A stretch of DNA of 48,989 bases from the IMG/VR virus record IMGVR_UViG_2541047945_000011; one strand, given 5' to 3'. The position numbers and the translations under genes were made by a program. Below the pieces are notes generated by a model. The model was given only the letters and a program-made list of their open reading frames with translations, was not told the DNA's origin and searched no databases. Position 1 is the stretch's first letter; every line of letters starts with the position of its first letter. The DNA is from a virus. Taxonomy: Duplodnaviria > Heunggongvirae > Uroviricota > Caudoviricetes. Of this stretch, positions 23,843 through 24,169 are shown piece after piece.

Positions 23843-24169
23843 TCAGGGACGTGACGGCGTAAAGATAAATTGTCTCTTCACTCCCTGACAGGGGCGATTC
23901 TTTTCAAATCGCCATTTCGCCATGGCCTTCACCACTTCATCACGAAACAAATTATGAGGCTCTGAGCGGAGAAAAACGATCCGTGTCACAGTCCCATCAG
24001 CACCAATATCGAACTTAACCTCAACCAGCCCCTTGATATAATTTGCTGCAGCATATTCCGGATATCGTGGATACACCGTCACTAATTGCCGGGGCTCATC
24101 AGCTTTTTGCTGTGAGCATCCCACTGCCAGGACAGATAACAGAAAAAGTAGTAAAAGGCGTCTTTTCAT
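23843..24169 (-). CDS. Lipoprotein with TonB C-terminal-like domain
   Basis: MKRRLLLLFLLSVLAVGC lipobox; YPRYPEYAAANYIKGLVEVKFDIGADGTVTRIVFLRSEP...AMAKWRF resembles the TonB_C fold. Occupies the lambda bor-like moron position between Rz and cos. Confidence 0.55.
   Translation of the reverse strand: MKRRLLLLFLLSVLAVGCSQQKADEPRQLVTVYPRYPEYAAANYIKGLVEVKFDIGADGTVTRIVFLRSEPHNLFRDEVVKAMAKWRFEKNRPCQGVKRQFIFTPSRP

What the first reader, a model, noticed from the sequence alone, without database searches (positions are those of the whole stretch)
23843..24169. Prophage lipoprotein carrying a TonB C-terminal-like domain
The protein has a lipobox (LAVGC) followed by a ~90-residue region resembling the TonB C-terminal domain (YP.YP..A......G.V.V.F.I...G.V). 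A periplasm-facing TonB-CTD decoy could interfere with TonB-dependent receptor function. That is a plausible route to superinfection exclusion against TonB-dependent phages or colicins, analogous to Cor or Llp.
Basis: inference. Interest (0 to 1): 0.55.

Follow-up and report, generated by a model that had tools for sequence, protein, structure and literature searches.

The report
Prophage lipoprotein copying TonB's docking domain
A lambda-like prophage carries a small, well conserved gene for an outer-membrane-anchored copy of the receptor-docking domain of the host protein TonB; the gene is already annotated and sits in about 30% of E. coli genomes, its function is untested, and it most likely jams TonB-powered entry of phages and colicins.

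Summary
Window 23843-24169 (- strand) encodes a 108-aa protein with a lipoprotein signal (LAVG|C18, Ser at +2) and a complete TonB C-terminal domain. Support: Pfam TonB_C E=7e-13, and an AlphaFold model (pLDDT 87) at 1.1 A rmsd from TonB in the BtuB complex.

It is not new as an object. It is 100% identical to phage 21 gene CPT_21_73 ("TonB C-terminal domain protein") and to RefSeq WP_000830178.1. It occurs in 1617 of 5426 complete E. coli genomes. The identical gene in LF82 prophage Perceval is listed as a moron transcribed in the lysogen.

It lies between Rz/Rz1 and cos. It is under purifying selection (dN/dS 0.12 between two alleles). It belongs to an Enterobacterales family of small lipoprotein-plus-TonB_C proteins, some in prophages at the same slot and some chromosomal.

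I found no functional test in the papers searched. The decoy idea is plausible. The domain equals TonB 145-235, laboratory periplasmic TonB fragments inhibit the TonB system, and the short tether puts it at the transporters' periplasmic face.

Against it, the TonB Q160 and R166 equivalents are changed, and a strong block of iron uptake would be costly. Verdict: real, already annotated, mechanism unproven but easily testable.

The parts
23843..24169 (-). Coding sequence of the 108-aa lipoprotein with a TonB C-terminal domain (stop codon included).
   Evidence: ORF and translation. It is identical to phage 21 UMO75484.1 and RefSeq WP_000830178.1. dN/dS is 0.12 against the 72%-identical allele.
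24116..24169 (-). Lipoprotein signal peptide (residues 1-17) plus the lipid-modified Cys18. The lipobox is LAVGC, with Ser19 at +2 and Gln20 at +3.
   Evidence: Read directly from the sequence. The Cys is invariant in 31 of 31 family members, and the +2 residue is S, T or A in 30 of them, never Asp. Outer-membrane sorting is inferred from the established +2 rule.
23861..24094 (-). TonB C-terminal domain, residues 26-103, equivalent to E. coli TonB 153-230. The last strand (94-103) corresponds to TonB beta3, the strand that pairs with TonB boxes.
   Evidence: Pfam and TIGRFAM matches, PDB alignment, AlphaFold model and Foldseek, and residue mapping.
24176..24179 (-). Shine-Dalgarno AGGA, 6 nt before the ATG.
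   Evidence: Read from the sequence. The RBS-proximal 27 nt are conserved between alleles. Phage 21 annotates a ribosome-binding site here.
23728..23750 (.). A 9-bp G+C-rich hairpin between the convergent genes, about 95 nt after the stop codon. It is a candidate bidirectional terminator.
   Evidence: RNA fold z = -2.56 for 23700-23790, and direct reading of the sequence. Function is inferred.
24317..24460 (-). Conserved non-coding lambdoid backbone block upstream of the gene. It may hold the lysogenic promoter, but this is unproven.
   Evidence: It is 85-92% identical between the two alleles' phages, against 73% for the coding sequence. It is present in 432 phage records including lambda. No consensus sigma-70 promoter was called.
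24480..24953 (-). Context: Rz (i-spanin), with Rz1 (o-spanin) embedded at 24542-24727. This is the real spanin pair.
   Evidence: phrog_13 E=1.6e-73 and phrog_3198 E=1.3e-29.
23068..23079 (-). Context: cosN cohesive-end sequence GGGCGGCGACCT. The gene is the last same-strand (late-strand) gene before cos.
   Evidence: Comparison with the right end of the linear phage 21 genome.

Best explanation
The gene is a prophage accessory gene (moron). [quoted passage not shown]

A linker of about 8-10 residues there holds a monomeric, complete copy of the TonB C-terminal domain directly under the TonB-dependent transporters. The copy has no membrane anchor to ExbB/ExbD and no proline-rich rod, so it cannot transmit energy.

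The proposed mechanism is that it docks by beta-strand addition onto TonB boxes. These could be the boxes of transporters such as FhuA, FepA, CirA or BtuB, or the boxes of incoming group B colicins. In doing so it would compete with real TonB.

The proposed consequence is a partial uncoupling of those gates. That would lower entry of TonB-dependent phages (T1/phi80-type) and of colicins and microcins into the lysogen, at some cost to siderophore uptake.

Shown here: the gene, the lipobox, the domain, the fold, the conservation and the genomic position. Taken from a paper: expression in a lysogen. Inferred: outer-membrane sorting. Inferred and untested: binding to TonB boxes and any exclusion phenotype.
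For: - Domain and fold. TonB_C is above the curated cutoffs. The model is 1.1 A from TonB as bound to BtuB and 0.9 A from TonB as bound to FhuA. It does not resemble the intertwined dimer of short fragments (1ihr, TM 0.29-0.40).
- Extent. The mature protein (residues 18-108) equals TonB 145-235, the length of the monomeric 92-residue fragment 1u07, which is the top structural hit.
- Retained core and docking-strand pattern. P161, Y163, P164, F180, G186, F202, W213 and F230 equivalents are kept, and the beta3 pattern x-T/N-hydrophobic-x-F-K/R is conserved in the family.
- Open strand edge. The chain ends 5 residues after beta3 (TPSRP) and no further strand is modelled, so the strand edge is free.
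- Topology. The Cys is invariant, the +2 residue is never Asp, and the linker is short.
- Laboratory precedent. Periplasmic TonB 33-239, 103-239 and 122-239 inhibit TonB system activity, and the original authors attributed this to blocked TonB-transporter contacts (bioRxiv 10.1101/2020.01.05.895219).
- Lysogenic expression. The identical Perceval gene LF82_160 is 8-fold above prophage background in LB (PMC9928086).
- Selection. dN/dS is 0.12 with dS about 1.5. The gene is in 1617 of 5426 complete E. coli genomes. The same slot, after the lysis genes and before terminase, is occupied in a Klebsiella phage and in a Rahnella prophage at 32-41% identity.
Against: - No experiment was found, and there is no PADLOC family match.
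- Residues genetically tied to TonB-box recognition or the FhuA contact differ. Q160 becomes Y33 and is variable in the family. R166 becomes Tyr in 29 of 31 members. R158 becomes T31.
- The laboratory inhibition used overexpressed soluble fragments. It may partly act through ExbD, which a short outer-membrane tether would not reach.
- A strong TonB block should be costly, yet the gene is common, also in strains that carry siderophore islands.
- Homologues in Klebsiella, Raoultella, Pantoea, Erwinia and Serratia lie outside recognisable prophages, so the family may have a housekeeping role.
- No clear own promoter was found.
Confidence: 0.45

Rival explanations
1. It is an envelope-tethering or stabilising lipoprotein. 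The TonB-type domain would bind peptidoglycan or another periplasmic partner and link it to the outer membrane, as Pal, Lpp or OmpA-type domains do. The lysogen would gain envelope robustness or serum resistance rather than receptor blockade.
For: - Non-phage chromosomal homologues sit as single genes in several Enterobacterales.
- Family-specific substitutions at TonB R166, L170, R204 and K207 suggest a partner different from TonB's.
- The slot is the one used by bor in lambda, and bor is its near neighbour in phage 21.
- Peptidoglycan binding by the TonB C-terminus has been reported. This is from my own knowledge and was not checked here.
Against: - No peptidoglycan-binding motif or family was detected; only TonB-type models match.
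- The fold and the free beta3 edge are those of the transporter-docking form.
- Phage 21 carries bor as well, so the two are not redundant.
Confidence: 0.15
2. It works on the TonB machine itself rather than on the transporters. It would pair with the C-terminal domain of real TonB, or with ExbD's periplasmic domain, and trap TonB at the outer membrane. Alternatively it could serve a single dedicated transporter as a modulator.
For: TonB C-terminal domains can dimerise in crystals (1ihr and 1u07 chains). The inhibitory effect of periplasmic TonB has been re-examined with respect to ExbD-TonB contacts.
Against: The short outer-membrane tether keeps the domain far from ExbD. The model is the monomeric form. 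There is no conserved neighbouring transporter gene in phage or chromosomal contexts.
Confidence: 0.12
3. It is a late lytic-cycle function. It would be an accessory to lysis (PHROG 1267 is labelled 'Rz-like spanin') or a factor acting at or after lysis, transcribed with the late operon.
For: It is on the same strand as the lysis genes and directly downstream of them, with no predicted terminator between Rz and the gene.
Against: - A complete Rz/Rz1 pair is present upstream.
- The protein has a globular TonB fold. By inspection of the sequence it is not the short proline-rich Rz1 type and has no C-terminal membrane segment, as a unimolecular spanin would (spanin features from my own knowledge).
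- It is transcribed in the lysogen.
- Chromosomal homologues lack lysis genes.
Confidence: 0.08
4. It is a decaying fragment of tonB picked up by a phage and has no function.
For: Some records annotate it as 'partial', 'fragment' or 'truncated' TonB.
Against: - dN/dS is 0.12 across alleles with saturated synonymous change.
- A lipoprotein signal has been added and is conserved.
- The family profile scores members at 126 bits or more, against about 100 bits for real TonB.
- It is intact in 1612 genomes, and its position is conserved across genera.
Confidence: 0.03

Closest known systems
E. coli TonB C-terminal domain (residues about 150-239; PDB 1u07, 1xx3, 2gsk, 2grx)
   Same: It has the same fold (rmsd 0.9-1.5 A). 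Identity is 38% over 86 aligned residues with no gaps. The core aromatic, Pro and Gly residues are the same, as is the beta3 docking strand.
   Different: It has no N-terminal transmembrane helix and no proline-rich spacer, so there is no coupling to ExbB/ExbD. It is anchored to the opposite membrane by a lipid. It lacks the last 4 residues of TonB. Q160, R158 and R166 are replaced. It scores far below the TonB equivalog cutoffs (69 against 315 bits).
Engineered periplasmic TonB fragments (signal peptide fused to TonB 33-239, 103-239 or 122-239)
   Same: They are also an exported TonB C-terminal domain uncoupled from the motor. They are dominant-negative for TonB-dependent transport.
   Different: They are laboratory constructs, soluble, longer and overexpressed. 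The phage protein is natural, lipid-anchored at the outer membrane, has diverged to 38% identity, and is untested.
Cor (phi80, N15, HK022) and Llp (T5) superinfection-exclusion lipoproteins
   Same: They are small phage-encoded outer-membrane lipoproteins that act from the periplasmic side on a TonB-dependent transporter (FhuA) to stop other phages. The Llp description comes from the abstract of bioRxiv 10.64898/2026.03.26.714494.
   Different: There is no sequence or fold relationship. Llp and Cor target one receptor. A TonB mimic would act on the shared TonB box of many transporters and would affect only TonB-dependent steps. No exclusion has been shown here.
Lambda Bor / Iss lipoprotein
   Same: It is a lipoprotein moron in the same genome slot, between Rz and cos, and is expressed from the prophage. 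The two are neighbours in phage 21.
   Different: It is unrelated in sequence and lies on the opposite strand. Its reported role is serum resistance. The window has no bor.

Membership tests
TonB_C domain (Pfam PF03544 / TIGR01352) | Profile match above the curated gathering score. | tested here: met
   49.2 bits against a cutoff of 24.6; 47.4 bits against 27.1.
TonB_C domain (Pfam PF03544 / TIGR01352) | Alpha/beta fold of the TonB C-terminal domain: three-stranded sheet plus two helices, in the monomeric form. | tested here: met
   The model has pLDDT 86.8. Foldseek gives probability 1.00, target-normalised TM-score (TMt) 0.92 and rmsd 1.1 A to 2gsk_B.
TonB energy transducer (NCBIfam NF008081-NF008084, 'TonB system transport protein TonB') | Full-length architecture: N-terminal inner-membrane anchor, proline-rich spacer and C-terminal domain. 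Score above the equivalog cutoff. | tested here: not met
   Scores are 58-69 bits against cutoffs of 265-448, and only the last 80 or so profile positions match. The N-terminus is a lipoprotein signal and there is no Pro-rich region.
TonB energy transducer | Residues tied to TonB-box recognition or the FhuA contact: Q160 and R166. Q160L as a suppressor is cited in PMC11658791. The role of R166 is from my own knowledge. | tested here: not met
   Q160 becomes Y33. R166 becomes Y39, and it is Tyr in 29 of 31 family members against Arg in 5 of 5 TonBs.
Bacterial lipoprotein, outer-membrane sorted | A signal peptide with a lipobox [LVI][ASTVI][GAS]C; no Asp at +2. | tested here: met
   The sequence is MKRR-LLLLFLLSVLAVG-C18-S19. 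The Cys is invariant and +2 is S, T or A across the family. Acylation and localisation themselves are not testable with these tools.
Cor/Llp-type superinfection-exclusion lipoproteins | Homology to Cor or Llp. | tested here: not met
   The Pfam, NCBIfam and PHROG searches gave only TonB-type models and 'spanin'-labelled PHROGs. The fold is TonB_C.
Cor/Llp-type superinfection-exclusion lipoproteins | Blocks infection by phages that use the targeted receptor. | not testable with these tools
   No published test was found.
Spanin (PHROG 1267 label 'Rz-like spanin') | The o-spanin is a small lipoprotein gene embedded in, overlapping or adjacent to its i-spanin partner. A unimolecular spanin has a lipobox plus a C-terminal membrane helix. 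| tested here: not met
   The real Rz/Rz1 pair is at 24480-24953 and 24542-24727. This gene is 310 nt further downstream. Its product is globular and has no C-terminal hydrophobic segment.
Prophage moron (accessory gene expressed in lysogeny) | Not needed for phage growth, variably present among related phages, and transcribed from the repressed prophage. | tested here: met
   Only 15 of 50,697 phage records have it, while 432 share the flanking backbone block. The identical gene is listed as a moron, 8-fold above background, in LF82 (PMC9928086). Transcription in this particular prophage was not tested.

The most novel reading that the evidence does not exclude
Lambdoid prophages in about a third of E. 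coli strains deploy a molecular mimic of the host's own energy transducer. It would be an outer-membrane-tethered TonB docking domain that occupies TonB boxes and so uncouples TonB-dependent gates.

That would be a receptor-independent, broad form of superinfection exclusion and colicin/microcin immunity. It would also tune siderophore uptake and possibly susceptibility to siderophore-conjugated antibiotics.
Probability: 0.35. Interest if true: 0.75.

Novelty: new variant of a known kind. Interest (0 to 1): 0.5.

Why it matters
If the decoy mechanism holds, it would be a natural example of a phage copying one domain of a host machine to shut a whole class of entry gates. Cor and Llp, by contrast, each block a single receptor.

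The gene sits in the classical phage 21 and in roughly 30% of complete E. coli genomes. It could therefore be a hidden variable in several measurements:
- phage host-range and phage-therapy results for TonB-dependent phages;
- colicin and microcin competition in the gut;
- iron acquisition by pathogenic strains;
- uptake of siderophore-antibiotic conjugates.

It can be tested in days with standard strains. If there is no such phenotype, the family is still a conserved, unexplained outer-membrane lipoprotein of Enterobacterales.

Tried and rejected
- Fur regulation. A scan for the 19-nt Fur box found nothing with 7 or fewer mismatches in the 310 nt upstream of the gene. The best site in the area (23110-23134, 4 mismatches) lies next to cosQ and cosN and belongs to the cos region.
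- Own promoter. The sigma-70 consensus scan found none on the - strand between Rz and the gene. A conserved GATAAT about 70 nt upstream has no convincing -35.
- Regulatory RNA in the conserved upstream block. There was no Rfam hit and the fold z-score was -1.3. The block turned out to be general lambdoid backbone.
- Link to the phage's own receptor. The J C-termini of phages carrying the gene differ (47-99% identity), so there is no association.
- Spanin reading of PHROG 1267. Rejected.
- Cys94 as a functional disulfide. It is not conserved and is Arg in many members.
- Defence-system libraries. There was no PADLOC hit.
- Literature. Eight full-text searches looked for an experimental test or related terms and none found a test. 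The Howard et al. 2001 paper itself is not held.
- A profile scan of viral contigs returned almost only identical E. coli copies and added little.

Full report
**The object**

Window 23843-24169 on the - strand is an intact ORF. It has an ATG preceded by AGGA at 6 nt, and it encodes 108 aa: MKRRLLLLFLLSVLAVGCSQQKADEPRQLVTVYPRYPEYAAANYIKGLVEVKFDIGADGTVTRIVFLRSEPHNLFRDEVVKAMAKWRFEKNRPCQGVKRQFIFTPSRP.

The N-terminus is a textbook lipoprotein signal: a basic n-region, a Leu-rich h-region and the lipobox LAVG|C. The Cys is residue 18, with Ser at +2. By the established +2 rule of E. coli lipoprotein sorting (Asp retains a lipoprotein in the inner membrane), this predicts an outer-membrane lipoprotein facing the periplasm. 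That step is inferred, not shown.

**The domain**

- Pfam TonB_C matches at E=7.3e-13, 49.2 bits against a cutoff of 24.6.
- TIGR01352 matches at 47.4 bits against 27.1.
- The four enterobacterial TonB equivalog models match only with their last 80 or so positions, and far below their cutoffs.
- phmmer against PDB sequences aligns residues 23-103, without gaps, to E. coli TonB 150-230 at E about 1e-14. Phage residue i therefore corresponds to TonB residue i+127. Identity is 38% over 86 positions.

An AlphaFold2 model built on a 43-sequence alignment has mean pLDDT 86.8, and 96-98 across residues 31-100. Its element order is that of TonB: a short strand, a helix, two long strands, a helix and a final long strand at 94-103.

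Foldseek puts the model 1.1 A from TonB as seen bound to BtuB (2gsk_B, target-normalised TM-score 0.92). It is 0.9 A from TonB bound to FhuA (2grx_C) and 1.4 A from the monomeric 92-residue fragment 1u07. The intertwined dimer of shorter fragments (1ihr) does not match.

The mature chain (18-108) equals TonB 145-235. That is the whole globular domain, ending five residues (TPSRP) after the strand equivalent to beta3. No further strand is modelled there.

**Not a new object**

- The protein is 100% identical to CPT_21_73 of the classical lambdoid phage 21, annotated 'TonB C-terminal domain protein'.
- It is also identical to genes in phages ev017, Perceval and three ECOR-derived phages.
- RefSeq names it WP_000830178.1, 'TonB family protein'.
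- blastn finds the gene in 1617 of 5426 complete E. coli genomes. Of these, 1225 carry this allele at 95% identity or more, and 392 carry a second allele at about 73% nucleotide identity. All but one of the 1787 copies are chromosomal.
- PHROG 1267 holds the family but labels it 'Rz-like spanin'. That label is almost certainly an error of position, because the window has its own Rz (24480-24953, phrog_13) with embedded Rz1 (24542-24727, phrog_3198).

**Context**

The window is a lambdoid prophage. The relevant gene order, all on the - strand unless noted, is:
- J, lom and the side tail fibre at the left end;
- head and tail genes;
- terS at 22375-22884;
- cosN (GGGCGGCGACCT) at 23068-23079;
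- a small convergent + strand ORF of unknown function (23541-23720, phrog_4843);
- a 9-bp hairpin at 23728-23750;
- the TonB-like gene;
- a 310-nt spacer;
- Rz/Rz1, then endolysin and holin further on.

The gene is therefore the last late-strand gene before cos, as in phage 21, where bor lies between Rz and it. No terminator is predicted between Rz and the gene, so late-operon read-through should also express it during lytic growth. That is an inference.

**Expression in lysogeny**

This comes from the literature. In E. coli LF82 the identical Perceval gene (LF82_160, 'TonB fragment') is listed among morons, transcribed 8-fold above the prophage background in LB (PMC9928086).

I could not find a convincing sigma-70 promoter or a Fur box upstream of the gene.

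The upstream block 24317-24460 is 85-92% identical between phages carrying the two alleles, although the coding regions are only 73% identical. However, it is general lambdoid backbone, present in 432 phage records including lambda. It gives no Rfam hit and no unusual fold.

**Selection and family**

Between the two E. coli alleles dN/dS is 0.12, with dS about 1.5. The ratio is the same in the signal peptide and in the domain, so the protein is maintained by selection.

An exhaustive HMMER search and a profile search recover a family of proteins of about 105-130 aa built the same way, with a lipobox followed by TonB_C. By the source names and record titles they come from Escherichia, Klebsiella, Raoultella, Salmonella, Rahnella, Pantoea, Erwinia and Serratia. 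The family profile scores members at 126 bits or more and real TonB at about 100 bits.

Members in Klebsiella phage ST13-OXA48phi12.4 (41% identity) and in a Rahnella prophage (32%) occupy the same slot, after the lysis genes and before terminase.

Members in Klebsiella sp., a Salmonella-labelled genome and Pantoea are single chromosomal genes. For the representative genomes of Raoultella, Erwinia, Serratia and further Klebsiella and Pantoea, only the hallmark search below was run. Within 5-6 kb of each copy, tblastn with 13 lysis and terminase proteins from three phages found no phage hallmark. The family therefore has both phage-borne and cellular branches.

A second group has a linker of about 50 residues between the lipobox and a more TonB-like domain (P0139, P0199-P0201).

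**What is kept and what is changed relative to TonB**

Kept in the family:
- P153, L156, P161, Y163, P164, A167, I172, G174, V176, F180, D181, G186, V188, P198, F202, V206, A209, W213, R214, Y/F215, E216 and P220.
- The alternating pattern of beta3.

Changed:
- Q160 is variable (Y here, L in the other allele). In TonB, Q160L suppresses TonB-box mutants of FhuA and colicin M (PMC11658791).
- R166 is Tyr in 29 of 31 members. From my own knowledge, R166 contacts the FhuA plug in 2grx.
- L170 is Asn, A196 is Ser, and R204 and K207 are replaced.
- Cys94 is not conserved.

**Mechanism**

A motor-less TonB docking domain, held at the inner face of the outer membrane, would compete with TonB for TonB boxes. 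It would thereby dampen TonB-dependent entry.

Four things support it: the intact docking fold with a free beta3 edge, the topology, the lysogenic expression, and the laboratory precedent. In that precedent, exported TonB fragments (33-239, 103-239, 122-239) inhibit the TonB system. The original authors attributed this to blocked TonB-transporter contacts, and cells overexpressing such a fragment lost 55Fe-ferrichrome transport (bioRxiv 10.1101/2020.01.05.895219).

Several things weaken it:
- The Q160 and R166 positions are altered.
- A general block of iron uptake should be costly in strains that invest in siderophores. The matching RefSeq genome has the yersiniabactin island next to this prophage.
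- Modest native expression contrasts with overexpression in the laboratory work.
- Cellular homologues exist.
- No experimental test was found in eight full-text searches.
- There is no PADLOC family match.

I put the decoy mechanism at about 0.45. The rivals are:
- a peptidoglycan- or envelope-tethering role (0.15);
- action on TonB or ExbD themselves, or on one dedicated transporter (0.12);
- a late-lysis role (0.08);
- a dead fragment (0.03, contradicted by the selection analysis).

**Comparison and verdict**

It is a member of the TonB_C domain family. It is not a TonB energy transducer. It is not related to Cor, Llp, Bor or the spanins. It would work like Cor and Llp only in the broad sense of a phage lipoprotein acting on TonB-dependent transporters from the periplasmic side, and it would do so by a different principle.

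The object is already annotated. The proposed natural mechanism is, as far as the library I could search shows, undescribed. Interest is moderate (0.5): the gene is common and easy to test, with a clear precedent, but no phenotype is known.

Noticed in passing
window 24317-24460 (- strand): This non-coding block upstream of the gene is 85-92% identical between phages whose TonB-like coding sequences are only 73% identical (dS about 1.5). It occurs in 432 phage records including lambda. There is no Rfam match and no unusual fold. Its function, possibly a promoter or a recombination joint, is unknown.
   Followed up: partly
window 23110-23134: A Fur-box-like palindrome (4 mismatches of 19 on both strands) lies just upstream of cosQ (GGGTCCT, about 23102-23108) and cosN (23068-23079). 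It is conserved in phage 21 and is probably part of the cos region rather than an iron-regulatory site.
   Followed up: partly
window 23541-23720 (+) and 23728-23750: A small convergent ORF of unknown function (phrog_4843, 59 aa) faces the TonB-like gene. A 9-bp G+C hairpin between them looks like a bidirectional terminator (fold z = -2.56).
   Followed up: partly
PHROG 1267 (database label), relevant to window 23843-24169: The PHROG family that holds this protein is labelled 'Rz-like spanin'. The window has a separate, complete Rz/Rz1 pair, so the label looks like an annotation error that would propagate to phage genome annotations.
   Followed up: yes
window 24187-24324 (- strand): This 45-aa ORF is annotated as a hypothetical protein in phage 21 (CPT_21_72). 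It has no PHROG match, and its region is unalignable (41-59% identity, with indels) in the phage carrying the other allele. It is probably not a gene.
   Followed up: partly
L006, L008, L009, L096, L098-L110 (Klebsiella, Raoultella, Pantoea, Erwinia, Serratia genomes): Homologous small lipoprotein-plus-TonB_C genes sit as single chromosomal genes. tblastn with 13 phage proteins found no phage lysis or terminase genes within 5-6 kb. The family therefore has a cellular branch whose role is also unknown.
   Followed up: partly
L095 6001-6513 (Klebsiella aerogenes), proteins P0139, P0199-P0201: This is a second type of lipoprotein-anchored TonB C-terminal domain. It has a linker of about 50 residues and a domain closer to real TonB. 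It lies in an island of small unknown genes with an HNH_2 protein.
   Followed up: no
L097 (contig labelled Modestobacter excelsi, 418 bp): A 418-bp contig in an actinobacterial assembly carries a 100% identical copy of the first 67 codons of the gene. This is most likely E. coli or phage contamination of that assembly.
   Followed up: no
window about 26500-35000 and 42800-44200: The matching RefSeq record annotates other accessory genes in the same prophage: iraM, a SASA-family carbohydrate esterase, hokD, rem, dicB, and tRNA-Arg and tRNA-Ile downstream of Q. In that record the prophage integrase next to tRNA-Ser/mtfA is frameshifted, and the yersiniabactin island lies beyond it.
   Followed up: no
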